Part shown: piece by piece, positions 37,047 to 64,000 of the stretch
Layout: each line of letters opens with the position of its first letter
Numbering within the stretch: position 1 is the first letter of the stretch
Assembly (NCBI RefSeq): GCF_009914755.1
Contig: NC_060933.1
DNA length: 64,000 nucleotides
Strand: one strand, 5' to 3'
From: the human T2T-CHM13v2.0 reference genome, Homo sapiens
The notes under the pieces: generated by a model
Told to the model about the DNA's origin: nothing
Databases searched by the model: none
What the model saw: only the letters and a program-made list of their open reading frames with translations
Made by a program: the position numbers and the translations under genes

Positions 37047-38435
37047 GGTCATCAGCAAAGTCTGGGTCCGTCACTCTCCTCCCTGGGCAACATGAGCTTC
37101 ACCACTCACTCCACTTTCACCAACTACCCATCCCTGGGTTCTGTCCAGGCACCCAGCTAAGGCGCTCACCAGAATCTATGCAGGTGCTGGGGCCACTGGT
37201 TCCCAGATCTCCGTGTCCCACTCCAGCAGCTTCCAGGGTGGCTTGGGACCCGGGGGCCTGGCCACGAGGATGGCCGGGGGGATCTGGCAGGAATGGGAGG
37301 CTTCCAGAAAGAGAAGGAGACCATGCAAATCCTGAACGACCGCCTGGCCTCTTATCTGGACAGAGCGAGGAGCCTCGAGACCAAGAACCAGAGGGTGGAG
37401 AGCAAACTTGGGGTGCACCTGGAGAAGAAGAGACCCTAAGTCAGAGACTGGGGCCATTACCATTCAGGACCTGAGGGCTCAGATCTTCACAAATACTATG
37501 GACAATGCCCACATTGTTCTGCAGGTTGACAATGCTGGTCTTGCTGCTGATGACTTTAGAGTCAAGTATGAGACAGGGACAGTCATGCGCCGGTCTGTGG
37601 AGAGAGAAATCCATGGGCTCCACAAGATCATTGATGACACCAATGTCACTTGGCTGCAGCTGAAGACACAGATCGAGGCTTTCAAGGAGGAGCTGCTCTT
37701 CATGAAGAAGAACCATGAAGAGGAAGTAAAAGACCTGCAAGTCCAGATTGCAGCTCTGGGTTAACAGTGGAGGTAGATGGCCCCAAATCTCAGGATCTCG
37801 CTAAGATCATGGCAGACATCCGGGCCCAATAACGAAGAGCTGGCTCAGAAGAACCGAGAGGATCTAGAAAAGTACTGGTCTCAGCAGATTGAGGAGAGCA
37901 CCACAGTGGTCACCATGCAGTCCGCTGAGGTTGGAGCTGCCGAAGTGACGCTCATGGAACTGACACATACAGTCCAGTCCTTGGAGATCGACCTGGACTT
38001 GATGAGAAATAACAAGGCCAATTGGGAGAACAGCCCGAGGGAGGTGGAGGCCCGCTAAGCCCTGCAGAAGGAGCAGCTCAACAGGATCCTGCTGCACCTG
38101 GAGTCGGAGCTGGCTGGCACAGACCCGCGCAGAGGGGTAGCGCCAGGCGCAGGAGTAAGAGGCCCTGCCGAACATCGAGGTCAATTTGGGGGCTGAGATC
38201 GCCACCTACCGCCGCCTGCTGGAAGACGGCGAGGATTTTAACCTTGGTGATGCCCTGGACAGCAGCAACTAACTCCATACAAACCATCCGAAAGACTGCC
38301 ACCCGCTGGATAGTGGATTGTAAAGTGGTGTCTGAAACCAAGGACACCAAAGTTCTGAGACATTAAGCCAGCAGAAGCAGGTTCTCTTTGGGGAGCAGGA
38401 GGCCAATAAAAAGTTCAAAGGTCAAAAAAAAAAAA
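37047..38435 (+). pseudogene. KRT18: Full-length keratin 18 processed pseudogene (tentatively KRT18P66; number unverified)
   Basis: Intronless KRT18 mRNA copy: 5'UTR remnant, ATGAGCTTCACCACT at 37092, peptides DLRAQIF..DNA.LAADDFRVKYET, KYWSQQIEESTTVV, KVVSETKDTKVLRH*, TAA 38364-38366, AATAAA 38405, poly(A) 38424-38435. Multiple stops (TAA ~37158, TAA 38056, TAG 38138) and frameshifts. Confidence 0.97.
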
Positions 38436-38729
38436 GAAAATTCGTTGATGAGTTTTTAACTTCTAATGTTCCTATATTCACTTAACTGTAGCCTTTAATG
38501 ATTCATATCCCAATGCTAAGTCAGTGGTTTATTTGATAAATCTTTATTTTATTCTCAAATTTACTTACTTTTATCATGAGGGTCTTTAGCAGTATCAATT
38601 CTGAATGCTGTCTTAATTTCAGGCCATCTGTTTACTTTTTATGTAAAATAGAAGTCTGAGTCAGTCTGTATTCAAATTCATTTGGTGGATTCCCCCATCC
38701 ATATATTTCCTGTTCATTTATTTATTTAG

Positions 38730-39140
38730 CAAAGATTAATTGAGTCTTACTATTTCCCCAGTAATATGTAAACTGGTGATATAACTGTGAACATTCAAAA
38801 TTTGTCTTCTATGAAAAATAGAAAATAAAAATTAATAAGCTATTAGTTATTGATAAGTCCTAAGAAGAAAAATAAAACAAAGAAATGAGTGAGTAACAGG
38901 TGATGCTCTTTTGATGGATGTTCATGAAAGTCTTCAAAAGGTGATGTTTGAGCTGAGATCTAAATGGTTGCTATAAATGAGCAATGTGTCTGTTTGTAGA
39001 AAGAATGATACAGTTAAAGAAAATAATACAAAGATCATGATGCAGTAAGACTCCTGACATGTTTAAACTTGCCATGTTCACTGCAAGAAGGCCAGTATTG
39101 CCATACTGAGAGAGTCTGTAGAAAACGTTCAGAGATATAG
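38730..39140 (-). mobile_element. L2 3' fragment
   Basis: aggtgatgtttgagctgagatctaaatg ... caagaaggccagt, antisense L2 motifs. Confidence 0.6.
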
Positions 39141-40419
39141 TAGAAACAGTAGCTACATACTGACATAAGGGTATCTGTCTCTTGTTTATAACTATTAAAA
39201 GAAACTTTTGTAAATACTGCTGGCTGGAATATACTATTTACAAGAAAAAAGGAAATTAATTCTACTTCTGTTACTTTTGTTTGTTTGTTAAATCTCTTTA
39301 TCTGCTTGAGTGATTATGGGGGATTATTGCTCAAATCTTCAGAATTCAAGCATCTTGCCAAGCTCCATTAGTTCTGCACTAATTTTGCCAGAAATAAGAT
39401 GAATGCATTTGCCTTAGAACTTCAAGTCGTCTTTAGCATAGAGATATTATTGTTTTGTCTTAGCTTTGATTTATTTTGTGTTATCTGTTTGTTTTGTGTA
39501 TTTATTGGACAATTTTATTTGTAGTTAGGTCCTCTTCTCAGTAATCCTTGGTTTTGATTAGTTTCCCTTTTTCTATTGTCTTTTACTGCAATAATTCTGA
39601 GGGAATTAATAAAGATTACCTTCTAAAATTTCTATTTCCATTTCTTCAATTTCCTTTTAAGATTTTATGGTTGTCAATGGGAAGTATAGTCATTCTTGCA
39701 TTTTTAATTTCTCTGTATTGTATTTTTAATTAAGCAAGTTATTTTTTTTGCAATCTGCTTCTCAGATTTATGTCGTTGCATTCCTGCTTGCTTTCTTCTT
39801 ATGTTAGACTTCTATTTTGTAAGAGCAATATCACATTGTACCTCACTGAGAATTCAAAGAAAATCTTTTTCTAAAACTTTTATTTTCTAACTCAGCTATT
39901 ATTCACGGGTATTCATTTCTTTGATTTTACTGCCAGTGGTTCTCCCCCAACATCACTAACTCTAGCAGTATGTTTTGTTTTGCTTTGTATTTTATTAGTG
40001 TTGCTAATTTATGGTTAAAAGAAGTGTTAAGTATTAAAGTTCTTACATACCAAGTATAAAAGTTGTAGGAATTTTCTGATTTGATTTTTTAATAATATTT
40101 CCCTAGATTTTCCAGAGGCATTGGAATGAAGTTTTGATGATGAACCATCTTGGAAAAAGGGGCAACACACTAGGAATAAGAAATATAAAAAATAAAAGTA
40201 AAGATGCGTTCTGAAACCATGGAACCCTGGCATGCTAAAATTCAGACCTATAGAAGAGCAAATGCTCTACTTTCTGAGGGTATTAAAAAGTTAAAAGAAG
40301 TTGAATCTATATCTCTTTCTCAATTATAAATAGGTCATCACATTAATGACATTAGAAATGTAAAACCATTGAAAATATAGTATTGAAATATCAAGTTAAT
40401 TAAATAATTGAACCACTGT

Positions 40420-42086
40420 TAAAATTAATTAAACATGAATAAAAGAAATTGAATAAGAAACAAATAAATGAAAAGATTTTTGCGTTCATATATTGGAAGA
40501 AGTAATATTGTGAAAATTTCTATTCTACCAAAGCTATCTATAGATTCAATGAAATACCTATCAAAATACTGATAGCATTTTTCATAGAAGTAGAAAAAAA
40601 TTCTAAAATTCCCATGGAATTACAAAACATGCCAAATAGCGAAAGCAATCTGGAGCAAGAAGAACAAAGGTGGGATCATCCCACTGCCTGGTTTCAAAAT
40701 ATACTACAAACCTATAGTAATCAAAACAGCATGATACTGGCATAAAAACAGACATGTGAACCAGTGTAACAGAACAGAGAGACTAGTAATAAATCCATGC
40801 ATTTAGAGTTAATTGATCTTTGACAAAGATGCCAAGAAGACATAGTGAAAAAAGGGTAGTGTCTTTAATAAATGGTATTGAGAAAAATGGATATCCATAT
40901 GCAGAAGAATAAAATTGGACACTTATTTCACACCATATACAAAAATCAACTCAAAATGGATTAAAGACTTAAATGTAAAACTTGAAATTGTAAAACTACT
41001 AGAAAAAAAAAAGTGTTGTGGAAAAGCCTCTTGCCAATAGCTGGGCAATAAATTTTGGATATGACCCCAAAAGCACAGACTACAAAAGGTAAAATAGACA
41101 AATGGGACTGCATCAAACTAAAAAGCTTCTGCACAGTGAGAGAATCAATCAAAAGAGTGAAGAGACAACATATGGAATGAAAGAAAGCATTTGCATACCA
41201 TACATCTAATGAGGGGTTGATATTTAAAATATGTAAGGAATCCACACAGTTCAATAGTAAGAAAACAAATAACCCAATTTAAAAATGGGCAAGTAGTCTG
41301 AATAGACATTTCTCCAAAGAAGGTACAGAAATGCCAGCTGGTATATGAAAAATACTAAACGTCACTAATAGTCATGGAAAAGTAAATCGAAATCACAACT
41401 AGATATTACCACACACCTGTTAGAATAGTTAATATCAAAAAGAAAAACGATAACAAATGTAGACAAGGATGTGGATTAAAAGGAACCTTTGTACACTGTT
41501 GGTGGGAATGGAAACAGTATGGATGTCCCTCAAAAGAATTAAAAATAGAACTACTACATGCTACAGCGATCCTACATGCTACAGCGATCCCACTGGTGTA
41601 TATATTTCTAAAATAAATAAAGCCAATATGTCAAATTTATAGCTGCACTCCCATTTTTATTAGTATCTGTTTCAGCATTATTCACAGTAGTCAAGACATG
41701 AAAACCACATATGTGTTTGTCAATGAATGATCGAATAAAAAAAAGTGTTTCTGTATGTGTGTGTGTATGTGTGTACAGAGGTATAAAAGGTTTAATATTT
41801 CTGCTGTGCAGAATGGATAAGTTCTGGAGATCTAATATACAGCCTGGTTAATTTAGTTAATAATACTGTAACTTATATGGGGAATTTGCTAAAACAGTAG
41901 ATCTTAAATGTGTTTTCAAAAACAAAAAATAGGTAACTATGTGATGTGATGTATATGTTACCTTTTCACAATGTATACATTACCTTTTCACAATATATAC
42001 ATATTTTCAAACATCATTTTGTACATTGTAAATACATACAATTTTTATTTGTCAATTATACCTTAATAAAGCTGGGAGAAAAAAAC
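40420..42086 (+). mobile_element. 5'-truncated L1MA8/L1MA9-like LINE-1 (ORF2 3' part, 3'UTR, tail)
   Basis: ctaccaaagctatctatagattcaatg...atgggactgcatcaaactaaaaagcttctgcacag...ataagttctggagatctaatatacagc...aataaagctgggagaaaaaaa. Confidence 0.9.
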
Positions 42087-43418
42087 TAAACTGATTTCCA
42101 GCAGGAAAATACTGCATTTATAATAATAACTTTAAACCTAAAGTTTAATAAATAAGTTCAAACATTGATTATTATTTGGAAGCACAGCCAACTGTATTTA
42201 ATTTTGGACAGTTGTATTATTTCACATCTTTTATTTAATTAAAACTGAAGCTGAAAGATTAATATAGCCAATTCCCCCAACAAATACCTTCATTTTATCT
42301 AGCGTAAGTTAAGTATACCAGCATAATCTTTATTAATTTTTAACCCATGAATTTCCCCTTATTCTCCTCACGTAATGACAAAACAAACTTTCTGATTCAT
42401 TTTAGATACTCCTTTGTTCACTGAACTTTTTTTTCTAAATTTTAAATTTACATGGCTATAGTATGTCTGTGACATTCAGCAGGAGGCTTTGAGAACACAT
42501 TTTACTTTTTATCAATTTTACTTTTAGAAATGAATAAGGTACTGTTTTTGAGTTTTGAATAACTAAATTTAAATCTAATTTTACAGTCAAGTTATAAAAG
42601 ATCCAGTTAGAATTGTGAAGGATAATCCTAAAAATAAATATATTAAATATATAAAACTGAGATGCCAATAATTTCAGTCTATTAAATTACTCTCAACATC
42701 ACTACTACTAACAAAAGTTCCACTGTGATTTTTTAATCTCTCTCACATAAAATAAAACTTCTTTTAACCTTGGCAATCTGGACTAATTCCAATTATCTCA
42801 CTAGCTTTTTTTTCCCCCAATTTTACCTAATATTTTTAATTTGTTTTATTCAATAAAATATGTAATTCCAAAAATAGCTATGACAATCTCAGATCATTCC
42901 TCCACATATATAAACCTCATAAGCAGTTTAGTGATGACCTTTGTAACTAAGCAAACATTGTTAAATATTGAAACAATGTAATGGGCATTTTAACTCTAGT
43001 AACTATTACAAATCAATTCAGAATTCATACTAGTTCAAATAAAATAGAAGTTTATTTTTGCACGACACTCCAAAGTTGTGTTCCTTGTCAGAAGGGAAGC
43101 TCCACACAGTCATTCAGGAATCTAGGCTGCCCAAGATGCCACCCAACATGTGACTTCTACAGTTACTGTGGCTTTCTTCATCCTGGTCAGTCAAAAGGGA
43201 AGCAGGACCTGAAGGAACATGTGTGAGCTATTTCAATGCATAAGGCCTGGATGAGGACACATTACTTTCACTTATTATACATACATGGCTTCATTTAACT
43301 GTATAAGGTGCTAGAAAATATAATCCAGGTATATGTCCAAGAAAAAGAGGGAACTGAAAGTTAGAGAATAGGGAGAAGTTTCTGCCACAAAACACTAAGA
43401 AAAAAAATCATATAGAAA

Positions 43419-43511
43419 TAAGTTGATCAATTCTCTCGTTTTGCCCAAGACTGTTCTAATTTTAAAACGGAATCTCCTCAATCCCAGGAAAACCAGAACG
43501 ATTTGTCACTG
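43419..43511. mobile_element. MER81-like hAT-Blackjack MITE
   Basis: gttgatcaattctctcgttttgcccaagactg ... caatcccaggaaaaccagaacgatttgtcact; decayed inverted termini. Confidence 0.55.
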
Positions 43512-44258
43512 AATATACAAAATTCATATATATCAAAAGAAGATAGCTTAAAAATAATGTTTCAATATGAATCAATTCTGTCATAAACTAAGAATTCGTT
43601 ATTAAAGGAAAATAATTCTTTATATTTTTATGATAAATTAAATAGAACACAAACTGACTAGGAATTTATATATATATGATCAGAAAAGAAAAAAAAACTT
43701 TAGGCCATGAAAATTTGGCAATATACTTTACAGTTTTGTGTACATTCATTATTATCACTTTTTAAAATATATAAAATGGTCAAAATTAACAAAACATGTA
43801 TGTGTGCATTTTCCCACAAAGTTACTCATATTATATAATTTCGATACTTTGTGCTTGTATGTATATTCATCATTATAAATTATAAAAAGATTAGATATTT
43901 TAAAAAGAAATTTCTGAGACAAAAAAACATTTAAATACATTTTATACAAACAATATCTGGAAAACATTTTATATGTAAATGTAATGTGTTAATTCAAAGA
44001 TATGGAAATGTTCAGGATATATTATAATGTTACATAAAAATTTATTTTAAAATTATAAAGAAACCGTATTTTAGGATTAGTAACTAGATCTGCAATTACA
44101 CACTACATACAAGGCTACAGAGATCTAAATTTGTTTTCAGATGCATAATAGGTATTAATATTTTTCTTGTCCTTGAGAAGATTTTGTAAACAGTAGTGGT
44201 TTACTATCTTGATTTACCTACCCAAGTCTTTGATTTGATAACCAAAATTTAGTAATAG

Positions 44259-44699
<441 letters not shown>

Positions 44700-45512
44700 T
44701 AGAAAGCCAATGCGAGGAGGGGTGGAACTTACAGAAGGAACTTATATTCCTTCTGTACTGCAGGAATGGGCACAGACTGGCTCCCTGGTCTGACTACGTA
44801 ATGACACCAGTTCCATGTTCATCGTCACTTTTAGATATTAATGATCAGATAAAACGCTCAATTTCAGTGGAATTAAGAGATGGAGTGGATACTGATCTCA
44901 AGAAGTGTCGGTAACATACTGATTATCTACGTTTTTATTAACTTAAGAGAAAAGAAAATCAAGGGAAGAAGGAAGATATTTGGGGTACACAAACATTATC
45001 AAGCCTCAAATAACACATGACAGATAATCTCCCAGTGCTTCTATATTCTAAATTTACCTTTCTTCTCAGTGCAAGCTGAAATGTTACCAAATAAAAAGTA
45101 TTCTCATAAGTCTTCAAGTATTCTGACTTTGATTACATCATTTTTGTCTTTACATAGTTGTAGTAAGAGACAAATTTGCCAACATTTTTGAAGAACTATT
45201 GTTTCTGTCAGTAGGATCTAAATAATTTGTTAATGATCTTTAAGAAAATATATTTCTACTGCCACTCATTCCAGAGAATGCTAAATAAAAAGAGTTGTTT
45301 CTGGAAGGATCAACTCAATCTAAATCAAACCTGCTATTTGGAGTGCTCATTATTACAACTGAAAATGTAACGAGCATATATAAAATAACTTTGTTTTATC
45401 TGTTAACATTCTCCAGACTGGCAGCCCAAAGGAACCTTATTAAGTTGGAGTCACTGTGTTGGAGGATGAATTCTGATCATTTATTTGCCCTTGAGTATAC
45501 TCACAAACCATC

Positions 45513-46115
45513 CCTATTAGTTTCTATTGCTGTACAAAAGCATTGCTCCGAACGTACCTGCTTAAAACAGCAGGTATTTATTGTCTCACTGTTTCTGTGG
45601 CTTGAAATCTGAGTACCACCTAGCTGAGTGTTGGCTAGGGCTGAAGTCTTAGCTGAGGTTCACCATGGTAAGATTTGCTACTAAGTTTACTCAGGTGATT
45701 GGCAGAATTCATTTCTTTGTGGGTGTTGAAGGTTTCTTGGTTTTTTGCTTGTTTTCTTTTTTTGTTTTGGTTTTGTTTGGTTTGGTTTGGTTGGTTTTTT
45801 TGTTGTTGTTACTGTTTGGTTTTTGCTGGCTTTCAACAGAAGGCTACTTTCAGCTTCTAGAAGCTGTCCAAATTTTCTTGACATGAGCAATCACGCAACA
45901 TGGCCACTTTGTTTCCTTAAAGCCACAAAAGGAAAGGAAGACACTCTAGCAAGATGCCATCAATAACCATGTATGCATAATCAGATACCTCTGCTGCATT
46001 CTATTGGTTAGAAGCACATCACAGAAAGTACACACCTTAAAAGGAGATGATCACACAACAACACGAACATCAGGAGTTGGGGTAATGGCATCTACGTTTA
46101 CAATCAGCCTGCCAC
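45513..46115 (-). mobile_element. MLT1E/F-type MaLR LTR containing a (GTTTG)n simple repeat
   Basis: tattagtttctattgctg...gcttaaaacagc...ttggcagaattcatttctttgtgg...ttctattggttagaagc...gcctgccaca. Confidence 0.75.
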
Positions 46116-46622
46116 ACCATTCATACATATTTTTATCCAACATTCCAATAATGTTAATAGTCTGCTGAAAAAATTGTCTAGTGTATCATTTGATAGAATA
46201 ACACATTGAAGTCTAATTTATACAAACATTTATGCCTTAGACATTTATCCTATGTCATAATATAAGCAAAACTCTGAAAAGAATGTGACCCAGAATTCTA
46301 TTTTAAAGTTCTGTAGGAACTTCAATTTTTATTTTCACAGATGTGGAAGAAAAATTAAATGATAATCACATTGAAAAATCTCATCAATCTACCTTTTGAA
46401 GTAGGAAAGGTAAATGAATACAAACACCTTCATTATGCAGCAGAAATTGTCTGCATTAAATGCACAATCTCACATACCAATAGACCTAGTGAATTAAAAT
46501 GTGCAACTCATTATTTAATAAAATATCATAAAGCTTTGAATTTACTAGATTACTGCTTCTGTGTCCTTAGGCCTATTTATTAGTAAATTCTTAATCAATG
46601 AATTATAAAGTAAAATCTGTCT

Positions 46623-46676
46623 TCAACCCTAACACAAAATTATGAACTCAACCCTAACACAAAATTATGAACTCAA
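46623..46676. repeat. Perfect 25-bp tandem duplication
   Basis: tcaaccctaacacaaaattatgaac x2, followed by tcaa. Confidence 0.95.
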
Positions 46677-48267
46677 GGATTCTGATAATGAATGCTGTTT
46701 TTTATTGACATTTAATTGAACCATAATTTTTTGAATATATAAACTTCAAAATATTATCGAAATACTAAAATAAAGATGTCTATCATTGTGTTTATTCTTT
46801 CTATATATATCTGAAAATTCAGTTATGCATTTTAAATCACCATGGCTTCCAATTTCTCTAACCTAGTATTTTTATATTTATTTATTTTTATTTTTTTCTC
46901 TGACCTAATATCTTCTTCTTGTACAAGACATGACTCCTACTGTATATGTCTTGATTTCCAGATTTGTTCACTACAGAGAAGTGAATTAATGCAGCTTGGT
47001 TTTGTTTCCTTGCTGACAATCTTTTAGAAGTTTTGGGTTCCTTTTTGGATGAAATCTGAATTTATTCAGTTAGTTTCTGTAGTCCTGTATAATTGAGCCC
47101 TTTATAAATGTTTCGCTGCTTCTTGCCTTGTTTAATGTGCTACAGTTGTATGCTTCTGACTGCTCAAAGAATCATCTTCCTTACCACCTCACTGACCCAA
47201 CACTTCTTTTATTCTTTTTCTGGATAATTGCATCAAACTCTACAGACCTCAGGATATGTTACTTCATATAACTAGCATTCCAATGATAAAGGGGGTATCA
47301 GGGCTGATAGATTTAGCAAGTCAACACTGGCAAGATGCTTCACTGTGATAGGCATGTGAAAACCATCATCTCTGAAGAATAAGCTAGTTATAGTAAACTT
47401 GTACAATTTAAATATAGATATGGCATAATTCCAAGGTGAACAAATTATAATTATAGAAAAAGTAGATAATTAAAAAGAGACATATCTTCTAGAAATTATT
47501 CCTCTTTACATTAGGAAACATTCCGATGTTGATATATTCACATTTTATATTAAACCAGTTCATAATATTTATAGTGTTTCAAAAACTACTTTTTTAGAAT
47601 TATTACAAAATATTAGGTATAAAATACGTTTTCATATATCCAAGTTCATTAGTATAGTTTTACCTTTTATCATTGAAAAATAGTCCCTTGGGTCATAATT
47701 TATTTAAACCTACTCTTTTTGGTTGAACTTTTTCCTTAAAATTTTCCTATTTTTAACAGTACTGTACTGAACATTCTTATAGGTAAATATTTTTGTATGC
47801 ACTTTTTTTCTGAAAATCACTATCTAAAAATTAAATTAATGGGTCAGATGGCATATATATATTTTAAGCTATCAGAAATGATAATACTAATTTATACTCT
47901 AATTAATAGGTTGTAAAGTAATTTTGAATCCTGTAAATCCTCAAAAACTTAAGTCTCTGAGTTACTTGTAGAAGGTTAATCAAAATGCAAAGAGGGCAAG
48001 TGACAAATTCTAGTATAATTTTAAGAGAAATTAATTTTAAATACCTTGATATTTTATAACATTCTCTCTACAAAATAGAATTAATAATAACATGATTAAT
48101 TTATATAACATTTCAAACAACTACAGAGACTCAGCAGTTAAAGTATGTAATAGATTAGAGAGATATTAACTGGAAAAAGAAAATCAGCTCACTAGTTACC
48201 TTCACCTTTGAATTAATGTAATAATTTTGCCAACATCTTAAATTCTATATTCTCAAAAATCTTATTT

Positions 48268-48895: not shown

Positions 48896-52720
<3,825 letters not shown>

Positions 52721-52783
52721 TATGATGTTAGCTGGTGATTTTGCTCGTTAGTTGATGCAGTTTCTTCCTAATCTTGATGGTCT

Positions 52784-53800: not shown

Positions 53801-54836
53801 CTTTGTAGTTTTATCTACTTTTTGTCTTTGATGATGGTGATGTACAGATGGGTTTTTGGTGTGGATGTCCTTTCTGTTTGTTAGTTTTCCTTCTAACAGA
53901 CAGGACCCTCAGCTGCAGGTCTGTTGGAGTTTGCTAGAGGTCCACTCCAGACCCTTTTTGCTTGGGTATCAGCAGCCGTGTCTGCAGAACCACGGATTTT
54001 CGTGATCCACGAATGCTGCTGTCTCATCGTTCCTCTGGAAGTTTTGTCTCAGAGGATTACCCAGCCGTGTGAGGTGTCAGTCTGCCCCTACTAGGGGGTG
54101 CCTCCCAGTTAGGCTGCTTGGGGGTCAGGGGTCAGGGACCCAGTTGAGGAGGCAGTCTGCCCGTTCTCAGATCTCCAGCTGCCTGCTGGGAGAACCACTG
54201 CTCTCCTCAAAGCTGTCAGACAGGGACATTTAAGTCTGCAGAGGTTACTGCTGTCTTTTTGTTTGCCTGTGCCCTGCCCCCAGAGATGGAGCCTACAGAG
54301 GCAGGCAGGCCTCCTTGAGCTGTGGTGGGCTCCACCCAGTTCCAGCTTCCAGGCTGCTTCATTTACCTAAGCGAGCCTGGGCAATGGCGGGCGCCCCTCC
54401 CCCAGCCTCGCTGCTGCCTTGCAGTTTGATCTCAGACTGCTGTGCTAGCAATCAGCCAGACTCCGTGGGCATAGGACCCTCCGAGCCGGGGGCAGGATTT
54501 AATCTCCTGGTGCGCCCTTTCCTAAGCCCGTCGGAAAAGCGCAGTATTCGGGTGGGAGTGACTCTATTTTCCAGGTGCCGTCTGTCACCCCTTTCCTTGA
54601 CCAGGAAAGGGAACTCCCTGACCACTTGTGCTTCTCGAGTGAGGCAACACCTCGCCCTGCTTCGGCTCGCGCACGGTGCGCTGCACCCACTGTCCTGCAC
54701 CCACTGTCTGGCACTCCCTAGTGAGATGAACCCGGTACCTCGGATGGAAATGCAGAAATCACGCGTTTTCTGCATAGCTCACATGGGGAGCTGTAGACCG
54801 GAGCTGTTCCTATTCGGCCATCTTGGCTCCTCCCCC
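53801..54836. promoter_or_regulatory. L1 5'UTR with sense internal promoter (YY1 site) and antisense promoter
   Basis: Intact CAAGATGGCC YY1 motif near the 5' end; CpG-containing 5'UTR. Function inferred from family knowledge. Confidence 0.75.
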
Positions 54837-54848
54837 TCATTCTTATAA
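54384..54848 (+). CDS. L1 ORF0-like antisense ORF, C-terminally extended (154 aa); expression unknown
   Basis: gcaATGG Kozak context; MAGAPPPASLLPCSLISDCCASNQ is the ORF0 N-terminus; frame open until a TAA in the TSD. Confidence 0.5.
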   Translation: MAGAPPPASLLPCSLISDCCASNQPDSVGIGPSEPGAGFNLLVRPFLSPSEKRSIRVGVTLFSRCRLSPLSLTRKGNSLTTCASRVRQHLALLRLAHGALHPLSCTHCLALPSEMNPVPRMEMQKSRVFCIAHMGSCRPELFLFGHLGSSPSFL

Positions 54849-56974
54849 TTTTTATAACCTGTTATAAGTATGGTAGAGATACAATCAGATACATTTACGT
54901 AAACATCATTTCTGTATTCCTTCCTAATTGCAGACCTGCTGAGAGTGTCAAGTTTCAGTAAAATAAAAAGAGTTATTTTATAGCAGAGGATTATGTATGT
55001 CACGATGATGTTTAACGAAATCTGCGACACTGAAGGAGAACGTTTAGGAGCGAGTCGATACATCGAATATGACTTCCCTAGAAGTTCACAAGAATGACAA
55101 AGCGCTGTTGCAAATGTCAAGATGTTCAGTGGTCTAAGTGATATCCTCTTTCCTTTGCACCATGTATTTTCAGAAGTTTATGTGTTATGCTAAGATTTGT
55201 CATATATGAATGATGTTTTTCAATGCTTTATTTTGTAAAAGTATTTCATATGCAAGCCATTTTGATTTTATAGTAGCTATCCTAATCAAAGAGACATATC
55301 TGCTTTAATAATACATATTACTGTTCTGTGTCACAGGAATGCAGCTTAATTTATTTAATCACCTGTGTAAAATAGCATCCATAAGAGAATTGTTGTGGGG
55401 ACAGTCTTCCAAAGCACCATATGTGATATTTTCCACTGGTTTAGATTGCCTGTGTTAATATTATTCATCAATATAAATGATCAAGAGTTGCAGTATTGAT
55501 TGGTATTGATGTCAAGGAAGCAAAATGAGAGGTAAACTAAATTAGCATGAATAAAAAAGGATTTATGGCAAACATTTAAGCATAGGAGTAAATGTGAAAC
55601 CCATTTCAAAGGAAACAAATTAGCAAATGGTTTAATTGACAGAAAGCTCTGTGTAAATAATGGCTGCATTTTTTTTCACTGTTCATTTGAATAAGAAAGC
55701 CACTGACATTGGTAATCAGTGGTTTACCTCTAGATTTTTACAAGTAAGAGAGTTGTTGAAATAAAACTCCAAATGCTACAGCATGTCTGAGATCAAAATT
55801 TTCAGTTGATGTTCATTGATTTCTTATTGTAACACTGATTTGTTAATGTAATTTTTCAATAAAACCCATTTCTTATTAATATAAAAGGGTTAACATAGTT
55901 AAAAAAGAAATAGATATAGTTCATTCTAACTTAAGATCAGGCCTAATGTATTCTATTCTATAGTGATTATTGACACTCTGAAAAATACAACTAGGAACTA
56001 AATGTGCCATAGGATGACATTAAGAAAAAATACAACAAAAACAAATATTTCTAAAATCAAATTAAGAGATGATTTCAATTAAATTTTCAAAGCAGACCCA
56101 ATCAATTTTTGACAATAAACATTTAATCTGTCAAGGGTTTAGCTATACAAGCTTGTGGTGGATGAGTTACATGTGATAAAATTTTATTTGCCAGAAAGAT
56201 GAATTCTCAAATTCCCATCTTTGCATTCATTGGTTGTATTCTCTAGAAATGAATCTGGGGATTCTTTTAGTCCCAGTTCCGTGGATAGTTATTGACTTTT
56301 AGATAGTAATGAACACTAATTAGATAAGATTGTTCCTTGTGGTTAAACAATAGCTTGAGGGAAAAAAATAATATTTGCATGCGTCATTGAGGACCAGAAA
56401 AGGACATTATACATTACGTTATTTTGTACTCATGCTTCACAAATCCCTGAATGAAGAACTAATAAAGGTGCATATGCATTTTCCTGTTTTTTATGTATTA
56501 TTACTTAACTGATTGGTGTACACTAGTTATGCTTTCTTTATAATAGTTTATTTTAAAGCTTATTTGTTTAGGATTCTGTTTTTCACTACTACATTGGACA
56601 CTGAACTAGGCATCTAAATAAAAGAATGGATTAATTAATGATTTTTTACTCTGTAATTTGAATTATGAATTGTATCATTGAAAACAAGCAAGCATCAAAT
56701 ACCTCACAGGGTAAGCTGGTAGCGCAAAATTAAACTTTCATTTTCTTGATTTCCAAGGTATTATGTTATTCTATACACTGCATAGAAACTTTTCCTCCCT
56801 ATAAGAATTTTAAAATTAATTTTAACTTTTCTTTTTATTAATATTATTAATTAAGAATTCATAATTTTACATACCTGTGTGACTCAATATGATGTTTCCC
56901 TATAGGTGTATAATATGTAATAATTAAATCAAGCTGATTATCAGAGCCATAGCCTCACTTCTTTTTTATGGTGA

Positions 56975-57327
56975 GTTACGAGAAATGTACCTTCTAGGCC
57001 ATGGTGCCTAGAGGAGGAACAGATGTCCCTAAAAACCTAAACATCCCAGAACATATTTGAGAACATAATGACAATAAAAACAGTTTCATTACACACAGCA
57101 GACGAATAGCTGAAAAATTATCTTAAAAGCAACTTAGGGGCAGGTAGTGAGACAGATCTCTGGAGTTGTCTTGCTGCTACCCAGTAATGCCCTGTATGTA
57201 AGTTGTAACTAACTCATGTACTCAGCAAGCTAGCCTTGTCTGAGTCATTCCTTTTTTTCTTGGTTTCTTTCTAGTTTGGGGGTCCTTGCTTGAGGAGATG
57301 TTACATTCCTTGGTTTTTCTCATAATA
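56975..57327 (+). mobile_element. LTR47-like ERVL solo LTR, preceded by a short antisense L1 3' fragment (56830-56975)
   Basis: aactcatgtactcagcaagctagccttgtctgagtcattc...tagtttggggg...ggtttttctcataa. Confidence 0.5.
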
Positions 57328-57934
57328 GCATCATGTGAGATTGTGCTTAGAGGGACCTCCAGGTTGCAGTATCTTAACATGCTTGCTTCAAAGGAATGAC
57401 AGATACTTTTCTCCTACTATTTATATCTAACATCAAAGGGAAAGGCTCTGACTGGTCCAAGTTGGACTTCATGTCCATTCCTAGCTCAATATGTGTAATC
57501 AGAGGTCACACGATTGTCCAGGAATTAATCACAAGCTTGTCACTGTGGTGATATGACCTCCAGTGTAACAAGAACCATACTAGGTGGTGAATGGATTATT
57601 TCATAGAAGAAGCAGGACTGCTGCACATAGAAAAGAGATGACAAGATAATCTTCAGGAGAGAGCAATTATGTCTCTAAATGTTGTTATTAGTTTTATCTA
57701 TTAGAAGTTTCAAACAATCCCAGTTGTGTGGACACAGACATTACACAATTTAGGAAGGCAAACATAGGTAGGAGAGTACTATATTATAGTAGAGTACTAT
57801 ATTACTAACAATAACGTACATGCAAATATCACGTAATAGTTTTCAAAGTGATTTAATTAGTTTTGTATCCCTGTGAATTCAGGAGAGTGCTAAATATATG
57901 GTGGTGCAAAGTCTAAAGTTCCTGTCTTTAAAAA

Positions 57935-58135
57935 ATCAAAAGTAATGCCTTAGTATTTATCCTCTCTTGGACAAACAACTAAACTCTTCAGAACTTCATT
58001 TATGAATTGGGAGTAGTAATGGTTGTAACTTCATGGATTTGCAATTAAGATTGAGTAGGCAAATATATGCAAAGTGCTTTGAAATGTGCCTGACACATAT
58101 TAAGCACTTAGAAAAGTTTACCTATTATTATTATC
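57935..58135 (+). mobile_element. MIR SINE
   Basis: atatatgcaaagtgctttgaaatgtgcctgacacatattaagcact...ctattattatt is the MIR 3' end. Confidence 0.8.
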
Positions 58136-59179
58136 ATAATTATATTTGTGTCGACCTGATTTAATCACATGGCCTTGTTATCCTTGCCACATTGGATTGA
58201 AAACCAAAATCAGCTTGTTATCTAAAGACTGCCATTGACAGATTAGGGAACTGATACGCTTCTTTTACTAAGGTGTCTAGTGAAGTAAATCTTCCCAATA
58301 TATAGTGACTTTCCAGTCAGCCTCATATTCCCAAGAGGTTCTGAGTATAAAATTCACATAGATAATGTAGCAAATTTAGAAAGAATTATACAAGCAAGAA
58401 GAAAACAAGACCCAGAGAGAAGCTGAAGTACACATCGGAGGAGTCAGGAGAGTAGGAAAGAATTAATACTTAGTTCAGAGGGGATGACAAAACAATGTGA
58501 GTAACCAAACATATTGTAGATTTATTATTCAACTCCAAAATAAATTATAATTAATTTATCAGCTTACAAAACTGTTATATCCTTGCAATTAGCCCTTACA
58601 ACCTAAAGGAAAGAGGTTTTTGTTTCCTAAAATACTAAAAAGCCAAACTAACACTATTTCATTTGTTATCACAGTGACCAAGACACAGCCTAGTGATGGA
58701 GGATGAATACTATAGCCATATATCCATATTCTGAATATATCAATTTCTGATTACTCCCAAAAAGCCCCAAATTTTCTTTCACTTCAGAAAACCAAGGTCA
58801 TTAAGTTGATATTTACCCCACCAATGACTCATATATAAAAGTGTACACATATTCTTGGGAAGCTACAATCTGTAATTGTGTTGTTTTTAAATAAATGGGC
58901 ATAAAACATTTTAATTCAATTGCATTTGGTGATTTTGAGATTGCTTTCCTACAGCACACTCCTTTTTTTTCAGAGGAATACAGAAGCATTTTGGGAGAAT
59001 TATCTTCTACCCTGGAGATGGAACAGGACAGACATGACCTAGTGGTTCTTGGAGCAATATAAAAAGACAGAACTTCCCCAGGGCCATCCTGGTCAGCATC
59101 CACCTGCAGGAGTTGACCTACCAGGTTTACAATTTAAAAAAAGAGAAAGCAACACTTAGCCTGTATATATATATACACT

Positions 59180-59355
59180 TGAGGTATAGTGAATAGAGAA
59201 TGATATTAGAAGATAGAAGCCTGGCTATATTACTAATTACCTCTATCTCTGAGAAAGTAATTTAATCTCCCTGGTCTTCAATTTCCTAACTACTAATGAG
59301 ATGTGGTTGTAAAAGATTGTCTATAATAAACCCTCCAACTCTTCAAATCTGTAAA
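59180..59355 (+). mobile_element. MIR/MIR3 fragment
   Basis: gagaaagtaatttaatctccctggtcttcaatttcct core and ccctccaactcttcaaatctgt end. Confidence 0.55.
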
Positions 59356-60471
59356 TTAGCTTGTCAACCCCTGACATATCCAAATAAACCTGAAGAAGTT
59401 ATTATGCTGAGCACAGTTTTATTCCAGGGACTTGTTTAACTCAAGCAAGCAGTCATGTTCTGACTCTGGCGATTTTAAAAATTGATATATACACTCAGCT
59501 GAGATGTTGAGAGTTGAGTTACACATTGTATCATTGTTTGAAATGGGCATAGATTTCACAGTATTACATATTTCCAGTATTACACTGACACATTATACAA
59601 ATATGTAACTATTTATATATTTTATAAATTATTTCAAAAATTCGGGGAGTTTTAATTTGATATACTTTTGTAACTTGAGAAGAAAAGACCTTTTCTCTGA
59701 ATCAAGTTTTAGTTTTTTTTTTTTTTTTGGCTTCTTTGCTTTTCCCTACTAATTATTAAACTGGAAAAAAAAACTGTGCCTAGGTAAAATGAATAGTTTG
59801 GAGCTTACTTTATATGTTTTAGTTGCTGTGGAATTTCAACACATGTGTAATATGATTTTTCAATGGCAATATAAGACTTGAGTTTAAGTCCCAATTCGGC
59901 CTTTAGTATTTCTTTCCATCTGATAGCAGTCTCCTTTTTCTTACTAACAAGTTTCCTAAAGCAAAAGACAAACAACAAAAAAATTAGGGAAGTAAAGCTT
60001 AATGTTAGAAAGCAAAGGAAGGAATTACGTCAACAGAGTAGAGGGAAATCCATCACATTTAGCATTTCTTAGCTTTTCTCATGCACTTCTTAAACCCTCT
60101 TTATTTCGTGAGATCACCACCTGATAGTAAGTTTGGAGGTAGTCTTCTCCTCACTTCTTAGTATTCTTACAACCAGAATTGTGCTTCCATTGTTTTAACT
60201 ACAAAATCACATCTTGCAGCAGTTATATTTCTGAATTTTCACCACACTAAAATTTTACATTATTTGAAGGCACAAAATGGATCACATTTGTATTTGTATA
60301 TCCCAGCATGCTTCCTTAGTTAAAATTAAAACTCAATGAATATTTGTAAATCATATGAACCTGGAAGTCCAGAGGCTTAATTTTCTCTGTCGATATTCAA
60401 CTCTTTCTCAGAGTGTCTGACTCAGTTTAGAATAGAGAATATTTAATGGTTCATTTTGTGAGGCAGATTTA

Positions 60472-61420
60472 TGTACTTGTCAGCATTGCTTTGTAATAAG
60501 TAACCCCCAAAGCTTAGCTTGTTGCAATTATGGTCATTTCTTGCTCAATTCACATGACACCATCTGCAGTTCAACTATAACTGCTGCCCTTGCAGCTTTT
60601 GTAGGTAGTGCTTGGCACAGCTCCCAGTGAATTTTATCTCTGGAAAGAGGGCAGCCCTATTGTGAACATGCCAATTACCATAGCAAAAAGGAAGAAAGCA
60701 GGGCTGAGCTCAATCACAAAATGTAATTTCAAGTTTCTTCTTGAATGTGTCACTTTAGCTCATGTTCCATAAACAAAGCAAATTATGTGGCCAAGCCCAA
60801 AGTTAAAGAGGCAAAGATCTCACATGGCAATGAGTGTATTATATAATTCTATAACTGAAAAAAAAATGGAGTCAAAAATTGTCAAGAATGCAACAGAACA
60901 CTTTTCACACTCCTGGAGACAAATATTCATTTTCCTCCTTTTCATATTCAAAATATATATTTTCCTCACCTCCCCCCAAAGAAGGCACCATCACATTCTT
61001 ATGCCATCAGCTCATCAGGCTCAAAGTCAGAGGTCATGACCATCTACACAGAAGTTACAAATGTGGTTTATCTAAATATGGAGAAATATGGACTAAAAAG
61101 AGAAATTATTTTCCTCCACACACAGCCAATGCACATCAACAAGACAAAGGATAACCACAGTAAACATCTGCATTCAGAAAGGGAAAGAAAGGGAGGCAGA
61201 CAGATGTCATTGGTTCATAACAATTCCAAAGCCAGATAGCCCTTGTTCTGAAGGAAGAGAACATTGCTTTGTTATGCTCAAATTCATTTCTGAGAGAAGT
61301 AACCCCATACAAATATTGTTGGGGATCTTCGTTTTTCCATCTGAAGTATATCGTTTCTCATTACCCTTCCTGTGACTGTCCCAAGAGGATGATGATAAAC
61401 CTGTACTCCTAGAGGGCAGC
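60472..61420 (-). mobile_element. Old MLT1 LTR (to ~60890) plus adjoining MaLR internal sequence
   Basis: aaacaaagcaaattatgtggccaagcccaaagt (LTR); gtaaacatctgcattcagaaagggaaag...cattggttcataacaattc (MLT1-int-like). Confidence 0.55.
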
Positions 61421-61569
61421 AGAACTTCTGACTTTTTTTTTTCCAGTCTGTAAACATATGGGACATCAATTGATGGTTTACATGCCCAAAATCCCAACAA
61501 CATCTAATCCAGCCTGGAATTAAATTTGTCAGTATAAAGTCTCAAAAAAATAACAATGATTTATTTCTA

Positions 61570-62140
61570 TTATAGTCTCCCCTTATCCAAGGTTATGCTT
61601 TTCATGGTTGTAGGTTTCAGTAACCCCCAGGCAACCATTGTCTGAAAATATTAAATGAAAGATTGCAGGCAAACAACTCATAAGTTTAAAATTACACACT
61701 GTTCAGAGCAGAGTGGTGAATTCTCAAGTCATCCAGCTCCCTCCTGCCTGGGATGGGAATCCTTCCTGTGTTCAGCATATTCATGCTGTAGAAGCCACTC
61801 ACCACCCCTTAGTCATTTAAGTAGCCTTCTTGGTTATCTGTTAACTGTTGCGCTATCACAATGCTTATGTTCCAGAAACCTGTATCTTACTTAATAATGA
61901 CCCAAAGCGCAAGAGTAGTGATGTTGGCATATTGTTATAATTCTTCCGTATTATTGTGAGTTCTATTGTTATTTATTGTTGTTAGTCTTGTACTCTTCCT
62001 AACTTATACATTAAACTTTATCATAGGTATATTTTTATAGGAAAAAGCATTGTATATATAGGTTTTAGTACTATACAAGGTTTCAGGCATTCACTGGGGA
62101 TCTTGGAAAGCATGTCCCATGAATAAGTGGGGGACTACTG
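61570..62140 (+). mobile_element. MER44B-like (Tigger7-derived) DNA transposon
   Basis: TIRs tagtctccccttatcc / gaataagtgggggactactg followed by TA; internal cccaaagcgcaagagtagtgatg. Confidence 0.85.
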
Positions 62141-62149
62141 TATATTCGT

Positions 62150-62990
62150 TATGTACAGGTCAAATTTTCTAAATTAGTTTGTTAATAATGTATCATTTAG
62201 ATTTCTATGAAACAATTATGTTAGCTGTTTATAAATGTCAGCTTCATGCATTTCTTGCATTAATAGTCTATTTCTTTTTATTGCCTTCTTGCATTAGATA
62301 GGACTCTGGTCTGTGACAAGCAGAAATATTGATACTGGACACATATGACTTTTACCCCATTTTACAAGAAAAGCATTACATATTTTTCCAGTAACTTACG
62401 TTTTAGTTGTACAGTTTTTTGTTGTTGATGTGGTTTTTCAGATTAAAAATGTTCATGTCTATGCTTATTTTGCTGAGACTTAATTTTTATCATGCCCATT
62501 TGTTGAATTTTATCAAAAATGTTTCTGCACCTATTGAAAAAATAACTTGTTATTAAGTTGCATATTATATTGAATTACTAGTTGATGTTCAAGTATATTG
62601 CATTTTTCATTTATGTGATATTGTCACACATTGTATTATCTATACATGATGCAGTATAGTTTATGTATCATTGGATTTGAATGGCTAATAACTTGTTCAG
62701 GACTCCTTGGTTTATTCATGCAATTGTTTATTTAAACACTGTTCCGCAATTTTTCCTTTCTTACCTAGCTTTTTTTTTTTTGGTCAAATTTTATATGAAA
62801 ATTATGCTGGCCTCCTAAAATGAGTTGGCAAATGTTCCTCTTTGTTAGTTCTTTCTGAGTTTATGCAATTTTAGTGATATTTCTACCATATTTATTTGTA
62901 CAAATTTACTTGCAAACCATCTGAAATTGGAATTTGTTGTTTTTGGAAAGTGTTATTTAGAATTCAATTTCCTCATAATATTTTTTAGAT
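62150..62990 (-). mobile_element. Very old L1 ORF2 fragment, host of the second KRT18 retrocopy
   Basis: attatgctggcctcctaaaatgagttggcaaatgttcc is antisense of GTFANSF.EASII; ttgttgaattttatcaaa is antisense of FDKIQQ. Confidence 0.7.
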
Positions 62991-62991
62991 C

Positions 62992-64000
62992 TTTCTTTCT
63001 TTTTTTCTTTTCTTTTCTTTCTTTCTTTTTCTTTTGACACCCAGTGACCTCTGAACTTTTCATTGGCCTCATGCACCCTGCTTCTCCTGGCTTAATATCT
63101 CGGAACTTTGGTGTTGTTGGTCTCAGACACAACTTTGCCATTCACTATCTGGCGGGTGGCGTTTTGTATGGTTTGCATGGAGTTGCTGCTGTCCAGGGAA
63201 TCACCAAGATTGAAGTCCTCGCCATCTTCCAGCAGGTGGTGGTAGGTGGCGATCTCAGCCTCCAGCTTGACCCTGATGTTCAGCAGGGACTCGTACTCCT
63301 GCGCCTGGCGCTACCCCTCTGCCCAGGTCTGTGCCAGCTCTGACTCCAGGTGCAACAGGATCCCGTTGAGCTGTTCCATCTGCAGGGCGTAGCGGGCTTC
63401 CACCTCCCTCAGGCTGTTCTCCAAGCTGGCCTTCAGATTTCTCATCGAGTCCAGGTCTATCTACAAGGACTCGACTGTACATAGCAGCTCCGTGAGCGTC
63501 ACCTCAGCAGGTCCAACCTCAGCGGACTGCGTGGTGACCACTGTGGTGCTCTCCTCAATCGGCCGAGACCAGTACTTGTCTAGCTCCTATCGGTTCTTCT
63601 GAGCCAGCTGGTCATATTGGGCCCGAATGTCTGCCATGATCTTGGCAAGGTCCTGGATTTGGGGGCATCTGCGTCCACAGTTAACCCAGAGCTGCAATCT
63701 GGGCTTGCCGGCCTTTCACTTGCTCTTCGTGGTTCTTCTTCATTAAGAGCAGCTCCTCCTTGAGAGCCTCGAACTGTGTCTCCAGCTGCATCCGAGTGAC
63801 ATTGGTGCCATCCATGACCTTGCAGAGCCCATGGATGTCGTTCTCCACAGACTGGCGCATGACCAGCTCTGTCTCGTACTTGACTCTAAAGTCATCAGCA
63901 GCAAGTCCTGCATTGTCCATCTGCAGAACGATGGGGACATTGTCTGCAGTATTTGCAAAGATCTGAGCCCTCAGGTCCTGAATGGTCTTGAAGTAATGGC
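62992..64000 (-). pseudogene. KRT18: Second keratin 18 processed pseudogene, 3' part; 5' part lies outside the window (tentatively KRT18P36; number unverified)
   Basis: Minus-strand peptide DNAGLAADDFRVKYETELVMRQSVENDIHGL...MKKNHEEQVKG; no introns; TAA at 63092-63094; decayed signal AATGAA; A-rich tail 62992-63035; internal stops and a frameshift. Confidence 0.97.

What the first reader, a model, noticed from the sequence alone, without database searches (positions are those of the whole stretch)
37047..64000. Two separately inserted KRT18 retrocopies share the same disabling mutations
Seen: both copies read CAGATTGCAGCTCTGGGTTAAC (37744-37765; 63681-63702 on -), so both ORF-track peptides end QIAALG*. 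KRT18 as I recall it reads CAGATTGCCAGCTCTGGGTTGAC, so they share a 1-nt deletion and a G>A. Both carry GGGTAGCGCCAGGCGCAGG (stop at 38138 and 63311-63313), plus ATTCAGGAC, DNAG for DNAR, GTCATG, ACACAG and GTGACG. Yet copy 1 is polyadenylated right after ...AGGTC, copy 2 continues ...AGGTCACTGGGTGTC before its tail, and the 3' flanks are unrelated. A frameshift and stop cannot come from a functional KRT18 mRNA. Inference: either old interlocus gene conversion between the neighbours, or retrotransposition from an already dead but transcribed pseudogene (one copy seeding the other locally, or a third master copy).
Basis: partly seen in the sequence, partly recalled or inferred. Interest (0 to 1): 0.8.

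Follow-up and report, generated by a model that had tools for sequence, protein, structure and literature searches.

The report
Neighbouring KRT18 pseudogenes sharing decay mutations
Two dead, intron-less copies of the keratin 18 gene lying 26 kb apart on human chromosome 9 share several of the same defects, most likely because one copy overwrote part of the other long ago; this is ordinary genome history with no sign of function.

Summary
KRT18P66 (37048-38424, +) and KRT18P36 (64425-63035, -) both carry the 1-nt deletion, the TAG and several other non-consensus states. In a whole-genome search the two diagnostic strings occur exactly only in these two copies. The excess is modest: 9 shared rare substitutions against about 2-3 expected, with P from 0.00025 (Poisson) to 3 of 400 (simulation). 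The two "disabling" changes each recur elsewhere: the deletion is in 3 of 40 copies and the TAG in 4 of 40.

The copies are separate insertions. They share no flank homology, and they use different cleavage sites of the parental 3' end. They are also of different age. Copy 1 has the old-subfamily states throughout. Copy 2 has young states at parent positions 219 and 426, and all shared rare states lie at 446-1272.

- **Best reading (about 0.55):** ancient, patchy non-allelic gene conversion from copy 1 into copy 2.
- **Chance parallel mutation (about 0.3):** not excluded.
- **Dead transcribed master, or one copy seeding the other:** disfavoured.

This is a known kind of event and of low interest.

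The parts
37048..38423 (+). Copy 1 = KRT18P66, a full-length processed pseudogene of KRT18 and a member of the old (O) subfamily. It is the most diverged of the 40 copies (86.5% identity to the spliced parent).
   Evidence: Colinear with the 7 spliced exons of the chr12 gene. O-type at all 7 diagnostic sites. Coordinates.
38424..38435 (+). Poly(A) tail of copy 1 (12 A), placed directly after the proximal cleavage site (...GGTC).
63046..64000 (-). Copy 2 = KRT18P36, the part inside the window (parent positions about 427-1398). The 5' 425 bases lie beyond the window end, up to window-equivalent 64425. Identity to the spliced parent is 89.2%.
   Evidence: The full copy was read from locus L014.
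63036..63045 (-). 10-base 3' extension of copy 2. It matches the genomic sequence just downstream of the KRT18 poly(A) site (7 of 10 bases), so a distal cleavage site was used. Copies L005 and L030 use the same site.
   Evidence: third alignment block.
62991..63035 (-). A-rich, GAAA-type tail of copy 2 (a degenerated poly(A)).
37464..37763 (+). Block of shared non-consensus states in copy 1, parent positions 446-746: 446 T, 447 C, 519 G, 565 T, 651 C, 719 G, the 1-nt deletion after 37750, and 746 A. This is the putative donor side of the conversion.
63682..63981 (-). The same block in copy 2, the putative converted tract. The deletion lies after 63695.
   Evidence: The sitewise log-likelihood for a sister placement is +4.9 in this region.
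38137..38149 (+). Second shared cluster in copy 1: G (old-type, parent position 1115), T (makes the TAG, 1116) and G (1127).
63302..63314 (-). The same cluster in copy 2.
   Evidence: The sitewise log-likelihood is +4.0 for positions 1101-1140.

Best explanation
Two KRT18 mRNAs were retrotransposed separately, at different times, into the same AT-rich stretch of chr9, in opposite orientation and 26 kb apart. Copy 1 (KRT18P66) is the older one and belongs to the old subfamily. Copy 2 (KRT18P36) came later, from a transcript cleaved 10 nt further downstream. While the two were still nearly identical, one or a few short non-allelic gene conversion events copied parts of copy 1 into copy 2. These parts lie between parent positions about 446 and 1127-1272 and are densest at 446-746. 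They brought with them decay mutations that copy 1 had already acquired: the 1-nt deletion, the TAG and several substitutions. Both copies then decayed independently to about 86% mutual identity.

Shown: the two insertions are separate, their age classes differ, there is an excess of shared rare states, and these states are absent from the 5' third. Inferred: conversion as the cause, its direction and its timing.
For: 1. Separate insertions. Homology ends at the retrocopy borders. The tails differ, and copy 2's extra 3' bases match the parent's downstream genomic sequence.

2. Excess of shared rare states. With states carried by at most 4 of 40 copies, 9 shared substitutions against 2.0 expected (Poisson P = 0.00025). 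With exclusive states, 4 against 0.67 (P = 0.0049). The pair has the lowest or second-lowest P of 779 pairs, the X/Y pair excluded. In simulations on the free ML tree, 3 of 400 (at most 4 carriers) and 9 of 400 (exclusive) reach the observed counts. All 9 are non-CpG changes. There is also one shared 1-nt deletion.

3. The changes look neutral: 4 nonsynonymous, 3 synonymous, 1 stop and 1 frameshift, read in the parent frame. They therefore arose in a dead copy.

4. The shared states are not a family trait. Exact matches of both diagnostic strings in the 3.1-Gb genome occur only at these two loci.

5. Mosaic structure. Copy 1 is O-type at 7 of 7 diagnostic sites. Copy 2 is Y-type at 219 and 426 and O-type at 848, 983 and 1115, and it is the only such mix among the 40 copies.
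   - None of the 9 shared rare substitutions lies in positions 1-446, where 33% of such coincidences fall in other pairs (P = 0.027).
   - Moving copy 2 next to copy 1 costs 9.6 lnL in positions 1-446. It gains 4.9 in 447-760 and 4.0 in 1101-1140.

6. Plausible rate and tract size. Harpak et al. (bioRxiv 10.1101/135152; abstract and passages read) estimate a mean tract of 250 bp and 2.5e-7 conversions per nucleotide per generation. They report that conversion fades as the copies diverge.

7. Derived load is equal in positions 447-760 (28 and 27) but lower in copy 2 elsewhere (50 vs 35 and 53 vs 40). That is what conversion of this block predicts, though the difference is not significant on its own.
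Against: - ML does not clearly unite the pair. The free search puts copy 2 at the base of the O group. The sister constraint gives an equal likelihood (-17652.55 vs -17652.47; p-AU 0.624).
- In region 447-760 alone the free tree does not join them. The constraint is 0.12 lnL worse, p-AU 0.506.
- By raw identity the two are not each other's nearest relatives in any region. In 440-760 they rank 15th and 16th of 40. In a genome search with copy 2's central part, copy 1 ranks 12th of 40.
- Clustering of the shared sites is not significant after scanning (156 of 2000 permutations). The Fisher P of 0.0009 for 447-746 is post hoc.
- No rare shared state lies between 747 and 1115 at the threshold of at most 4 carriers. 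One continuous tract is therefore not supported, and two patches must be assumed.
- The deletion and the TAG each recur in other copies (L027; L010, L012), so the sites are mutable.
- Copy 2 could be a true temporal intermediate between the O and Y subfamilies, which would explain its mixed diagnostic states without conversion.
- No GC bias is evident in the shared changes.
- Only 40 of at least 104 candidate loci were aligned.
Confidence: 0.55

Rival explanations
1. Chance parallel decay. These are two independent retrocopies of neighbouring age that hit the same mutable sites by coincidence, with no exchange between them. Copy 2 is a genuine temporal intermediate between the old and young subfamilies.
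For: - Each copy has 100-130 derived substitutions in about 1400 bases, so some coincidences are expected: 2.0-3.3 at the threshold of at most 4 carriers.
- The deletion is in 3 of 40 copies and the TAG in 4 of 40.
- 60 of 780 pairs share an identical deletion.
- Copy 1 also shares 6 rare states with each of L019, L021 and L029.
- ML trees give the sister placement no advantage, and the free tree places copy 2 just outside the O group.
- The scan test for clustering gives P = 0.078.
- The pair was flagged because the coincidence had been seen, which is post hoc selection.
Against: The count of 9 is reached in 3 of 400 simulations. It has the lowest Poisson P of 779 pairs at two of four thresholds and the second lowest at the other two. 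The pair is also the only physically adjacent one, a criterion that does not depend on the mutations. Four states are exclusive to the pair, and the exact motifs occur nowhere else in the genome.
Confidence: 0.3
2. Descent from a dead but transcribed KRT18 pseudogene. Either one copy seeded the other through RNA, or a third, now missing, master copy produced both.
For: - The shared changes include a stop and a frameshift and look neutral.
- The constrained sister tree has a stem of 0.013 changes per site.
- A third copy, L027 at chr9:135.03 Mb, carries 2 of the shared states: the deletion and the A>G 14 nt upstream. This gives a nested pattern such as a master lineage would leave.
Against: - Copy 1 cannot be the RNA source of copy 2, because copy 2 has 10 bases of the parent's downstream genomic sequence that copy 1 lacks.
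- Copy 2 cannot be the source of copy 1, because copy 1 has old-type states at 219, 426 and 815 where copy 2 has young-type states.
- A common master would need two exact parallel changes at 219 (a transversion) and 426. The 5' third costs 9.0-9.6 lnL under sisterhood.
- No shared rare state lies in positions 1-446.
- No other locus in the genome has either diagnostic string within 2 mismatches, apart from L027 and L012, which each carry only part of the combination.
- From recall, L1-mediated insertion has no known local preference that would place parent and offspring 26 kb apart.
Confidence: 0.05
3. A local inverted DNA duplication of one retrocopy.
For: The proximity itself is unusual. For the 40 scored copies in 3.117 Gb, about 0.013 pairs within 26 kb are expected under uniform insertion, and about 0.09 for all 104 candidates (arithmetic).
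Against: With 1.5 kb of flank checked on each side, BLAST finds homology only over the retrocopy body; all other hits are 27 bases or shorter with E of 0.056 or more. The 3' cleavage sites and tails differ. The subfamily states in the 5' third differ.
Confidence: 0.02

Closest known systems
Non-allelic (interlocus) gene conversion between nearby paralogous sequences in the human genome, as measured by Harpak et al., bioRxiv 10.1101/135152 (abstract and passages read)
   Same: Short tracts of a few hundred bases, one-way copying between close and highly similar copies, and an end to the process once the copies diverge. The proposed main block here is about 300 bases, and the event is placed early, when the copies were still about 98% alike (inferred).
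   Different: The partners here are two independently inserted processed pseudogenes in inverted orientation, not segmental duplicates. The event is tens of millions of years old and heavily overwritten. No GC bias is visible, and the statistical support is only moderate.
Master-copy or secondary retrotransposition (a retrocopy made from the transcript of an earlier retrocopy)
   Same: Shared disabling mutations in separately inserted copies are the classic signature.
   Different: Here the shared states do not cover the whole length, the 5' thirds belong to different age classes, the 3' ends are incompatible with copy 1 as the source, and no other locus carries the set.
   Same: Two KRT18 retrocopies that share many derived states: 19 rare substitutions and 3 deletions.
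   Different: The X/Y pair shares identical flanks in the 30 bases shown at the 5' junction and the same tail position. It forms a 100/100 clade. The chr9 pair does none of this.

Membership tests
Processed (L1-mediated) pseudogene of KRT18 | Colinear with the spliced mRNA, with no introns | tested here: met
   Both copies align end to end with the 7 joined exons of the chr12 gene.
Processed (L1-mediated) pseudogene of KRT18 | Poly(A) tail at a cleavage site downstream of the AATAAA signal | tested here: met
   Copy 1 has 12 A after the proximal site. Copy 2 has an A-rich/GAAA tail after a site 10 nt further on that matches the parent's downstream DNA.
Processed (L1-mediated) pseudogene of KRT18 | Target-site duplications flanking the insert | tested here: inconclusive
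   Local alignment of the flanks gives only weak A-rich matches: 15 of 18 for copy 1, and 19 of 23 for copy 2 but not adjacent to the ends.
Processed (L1-mediated) pseudogene of KRT18 | Loss of the reading frame | tested here: met
   The 1-nt deletion and the in-frame TAG are in both copies. Further stop-like triplets and indels are visible in both.
Non-allelic gene conversion between the two copies | More shared derived states than independent decay gives | tested here: met
   9 against 2.0 expected, P = 0.00025. 3 of 400 simulations reach 9.
Non-allelic gene conversion between the two copies | Shared states confined to a tract, with different histories outside it | tested here: inconclusive
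   For: 0 of 9 shared states in positions 1-446 (P = 0.027), and lnL of -9.6 in the 5' third against +8.9 in 447-760 plus 1101-1140. Against: scan permutation gives 156 of 2000, and the tree of the region alone does not join them.
Non-allelic gene conversion between the two copies | Shared changes limited to these two loci | tested here: met
   The whole-genome pattern search finds exact hits only at the two loci. The chr7 hit with 1 mismatch is not KRT18.
Non-allelic gene conversion between the two copies | States change in the acceptor after its insertion (seen in orthologues) | not testable with these tools
Retrocopy of a dead retrocopy (master pseudogene) | Shared source states over the whole length, including the parent-lineage diagnostic sites | tested here: not met
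   The copies disagree at 219, 426 and 815, and no shared rare state lies in 1-446.
Retrocopy of a dead retrocopy (master pseudogene) | The same changes at other, distant loci | tested here: not met
   Only partial overlap is found: L027 has 2 of the states, and L012 has the TAG.
Segmental (DNA-level) duplication | Homology extends into the flanks | tested here: not met

The most novel reading that the evidence does not exclude
An old-type KRT18 pseudogene that had already lost its frame stayed transcribed in the germ line and acted as a small master copy. It first gave rise to the chr9:135.03 Mb copy (L027), which carries the deletion and the neighbouring A>G. After collecting more defects it gave rise to copy 1, and through a chimeric cDNA or a later conversion it supplied the central part of copy 2. 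The nested sharing (2 states in L027, all of them in the two neighbours) would then be a lineage record and not coincidence.
Probability: 0.05. Interest if true: 0.4.

Novelty: new member of a known kind. Interest (0 to 1): 0.15.

Why it matters
It matters little for biology. Both loci are annotated dead pseudogenes in an AT-rich gene-poor stretch (GC 30-39%), and nothing here points to function.

The case is useful as a caution. In a large, old retrocopy family of 40 or more copies at about 10% decay, identical stops and frameshifts recur by chance. Shared disabling mutations alone therefore do not prove a dead source.

If the conversion is real, it is an example of exchange between independently inserted, inverted retrocopies soon after the second insertion. 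Such exchange can slightly distort dating of pseudogenes by divergence.

Tried and rejected
- **Simple inverted duplication.** Rejected: no flank homology.
- **chr7:8.578 Mb hit.** This 1-mismatch match to the deletion motif was fetched and has no KRT18 similarity.
- **Target-site duplications.** No convincing pair was found for either copy.
- **Whole-length ML tree.** The tree is a star-like comb. The first free search missed the sister tree, which scored 4.8 lnL higher. Fuller searches give equal likelihoods.
- **Runs that gave nothing usable.** A bootstrap run from the constrained start tree timed out. The fast searches were too poor to use.
- **Tree of positions 447-760 alone.** No support for the pair.
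- **Scan-permutation test for clustering.** Not significant.
- **Regional identity ranks.** The pair is not the closest in any region. The script stopped with an error after four regions.
- **5' flank similarity.** In the 12 bases upstream of the two 5' ends, 9 of 12 are identical by eye. Many copies there show an A-rich flank ending in G or TG, so I treat the likeness as target-site and cap-G noise.
- **Six further, mostly truncated, copies seen.** They could not be fetched, so they were checked only through the motif searches.
- **Literature.** Four searches found no paper on these two loci or on conversion among KRT18 pseudogenes. Only the listings were seen.


Full report
**What is there**

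Copy 1 (KRT18P66) runs from 37048 to 38423 on the plus strand and is followed by 12 A. Copy 2 (KRT18P36) lies on the minus strand. The window holds its part from 64000 down to 63036, followed by an A-rich GAAA-type tail. The missing 5' 425 bases were read from locus L014.

I located the parent gene in the same assembly at C12:52913686-52917460. It has seven exons, and the joined exons give a 430-residue frame. Both copies are colinear with this spliced sequence. Their identity to it is 86.5% for copy 1, the lowest of the 40 copies, and 89.2% for copy 2.

**Check of the observation**

One coordinate pair is off by one base: the copy 2 string is at 63701-63680.

Among the 40 aligned copies the shared states are distributed as follows:
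- The 1-nt deletion (parent position 733) is in copy 1, copy 2 and L027.
- The G>A at 746, C>G at 519, C>T at 565 and C>G at 1127 are in the two neighbours only.
- The C>T that makes the TAG (1116) is also in L010 and L012.
- G>C at 651 has one further carrier. G>C at 447 and A>G at 719 each have two.
- The G of the GTGACG motif (927) has three further carriers, and its T is simply the family majority.

A whole-genome pattern search finds the 19-base deletion string and the 24-base TAG string exactly only at these two loci. The near hits are L027, L012 and a chr7 site that is not KRT18. The states are specific to the pair.

**Is it more than chance?**

Each copy carries 100-130 derived substitutions, so coincidences are expected. 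I counted states that differ from both the parent and the family consensus and occur in at most 4 of 40 copies.
- The pair shares 9, all of them non-CpG changes. The expectation from the product of the two loads is 2.0, giving Poisson P = 0.00025.
- For states exclusive to the pair the count is 4 against 0.67 (P = 0.0049).
- Only the X/Y duplicate pair has a higher count among 780 pairs.
- In 400 alignments simulated on the free ML tree with the fitted GTR+F+G4 model, 3 reach 9 at the threshold of at most 4 carriers. At the exclusive and at-most-6 thresholds, 9 of 400 reach the observed counts.
- A shared identical deletion occurs in 60 of 780 pairs, so the frameshift alone is weak evidence.

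Taken together, the excess is real at roughly the 0.001-0.02 level. It is not overwhelming.

**Separate insertions**

BLAST of the two loci, each with 1.5 kb of flank on both sides, aligns only the retrocopy body. Copy 1 is polyadenylated at the proximal site. Copy 2 continues for 10 bases that match the genomic sequence downstream of the chr12 gene, and L005 and L030 use the same distal site. Copy 2 was therefore made from a transcript of the real locus, or of something that keeps its 3' flank. It was not made from copy 1.

Target-site duplications could not be called with confidence.

**Different ages**

The family splits into an old group and a younger group. The old group has 11 copies including copy 1. 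At parent positions 7, 219, 426, 815, 848, 983 and 1115 it reads A, T, G, C, A, G, G. The younger group and the present gene read differently. Read in the parent frame, the changes at 219 and 426 are amino-acid replacements and those at 815, 983 and 1115 are synonymous. That is what evolution of a working parent would give.

Copy 1 is old-type at all seven sites. Copy 2 is young-type at 219 and 426. It is also young-type at 815, where the old state is a CpG and so uninformative. It is old-type at 848, 983 and 1115. No other copy shows this mix.

**Trees**

The family tree is a comb with very short inner branches.
- Fuller searches place copy 2 at the base of the old group.
- Forcing the two neighbours together gives the same likelihood: -17652.55 against -17652.47 (AU test p = 0.624).
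- I then moved only copy 2 next to copy 1 on the free tree. The change in log-likelihood is -9.6 for positions 1-446, +4.9 for 447-760, -0.45 for 761-1100, +4.0 for 1101-1140 and -0.56 beyond.
- None of the 9 shared rare substitutions lies in 1-446, where 33% of such coincidences fall in other pairs (P = 0.027).

Some tests go the other way.
- A tree of 447-760 alone does not join the pair. The constraint is 0.12 lnL worse, p-AU 0.506.
- A scan-permutation test for clustering gives 156 of 2000.
- By plain identity the two are never each other's nearest relatives.

**Reading**

The pattern fits best with two insertions of different age, followed by early and patchy non-allelic gene conversion from copy 1 into copy 2. 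The pattern consists of a 5' third with different histories, shared neutral-looking defects from 446 onwards, old-type states in the 3' part of an otherwise younger copy, and equal derived load in the central block (28 and 27) against 50 vs 35 and 53 vs 40 elsewhere.

A block of about 300 bases plus a 13-base cluster is in line with the published mean tract of 250 bp. That study also reports a conversion rate an order of magnitude above point mutation, which fades as the copies diverge (Harpak et al., abstract and passages). About a quarter of the derived states in the central block are shared. This places the event early in the life of the copies, which is an inference.

**Rivals**

- **Chance parallel decay** is not excluded. 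I give it about 0.3. The reasons are that the key sites recur in other copies, the tree tests are neutral, and the pair came to attention through the coincidence itself.
- **A dead transcribed source** is disfavoured. Copy 1 cannot have supplied copy 2's 3' end. Copy 2 cannot have supplied copy 1's old-type states. A common master would need exact parallel changes at 219 and 426. No third locus has the set.
- **One loose end:** L027, 104 Mb away on the same chromosome, carries the same deletion and the A>G 14 bases upstream, and nothing else of the set. I read this as recurrence at a two-C run. It is the one observation that a master lineage would explain better.

**Limits**

- Only 40 of at least 104 candidate loci were aligned. 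Six more seen could not be fetched.
- No primate genomes and no outgroup KRT18 were available. Insertions could therefore not be dated from empty sites, and the old/young polarity rests on the family itself.
- From derived loads of 9.5% and 7.3% and a recalled neutral rate of about 2e-9 per site per year, both copies are some tens of millions of years old. This is rough.
- The closeness of the two insertions is itself unexplained. About 0.013-0.09 such pairs are expected (arithmetic). The region is AT-rich, which from recall favours L1-type insertion.
- Four literature searches found no paper on these loci. Only the listings were seen.

Noticed in passing
L027 (G000 C9:135034861-135036239), parent positions 719 and 733: A third KRT18 pseudogene, 104 Mb away on the same chromosome, has the same 1-nt deletion and the same A>G 14 bases upstream as the two neighbours. 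It has none of their other shared states.
   Followed up: partly
L012 (G000 C16:78546375-78547774), parent positions 1115-1116: An otherwise young-type copy carries both the old-type G and the T that makes the TAG, the same adjacent pair as in the two neighbours. It may be a recurrent change or a two-base event.
   Followed up: partly
All 40 aligned KRT18P loci (L001-L030, L047-L056): The family falls into an old group of 11 copies and a younger group. They differ at a few sites that look like substitutions of the working parent gene (two replacements, three synonymous). The copies therefore form a time series of the parent.
   Followed up: partly
3' ends of L005, L014, L030 (and shorter forms in L013, L017): Several retrocopies end 4-10 bases downstream of the usual KRT18 cleavage site and carry the parent's downstream genomic bases. 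This is a fossil record of alternative cleavage-site use.
   Followed up: no
5' junctions of the copies: Most full-length copies have an extra G, often TG, directly upstream of the first parental base. From recall, this would fit reverse transcription of the cap or a start site 1-2 bases upstream of the one I used.
   Followed up: no
G000 C12:52915465/52915466 (end of KRT18 exon 3): The intron after exon 3 of the parent gene begins with GC, not GT, in this assembly. It is a GC-AG intron, read, where the joined exons give the full 430-residue frame.
   Followed up: no
L002 (chrX:90.91 Mb) and L003 (chrY:5.25 Mb): These are the youngest KRT18 retrocopies (95% identity to the parent). They are a DNA-level duplicate pair with identical flanks on X and Y, and they served here as a positive control for shared derived states.
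   Followed up: partly
window 62991-63035 (minus strand): The tail of copy 2 has turned into a GAAA/GAAAA-type microsatellite-like run and is no longer a pure poly(A).
   Followed up: no
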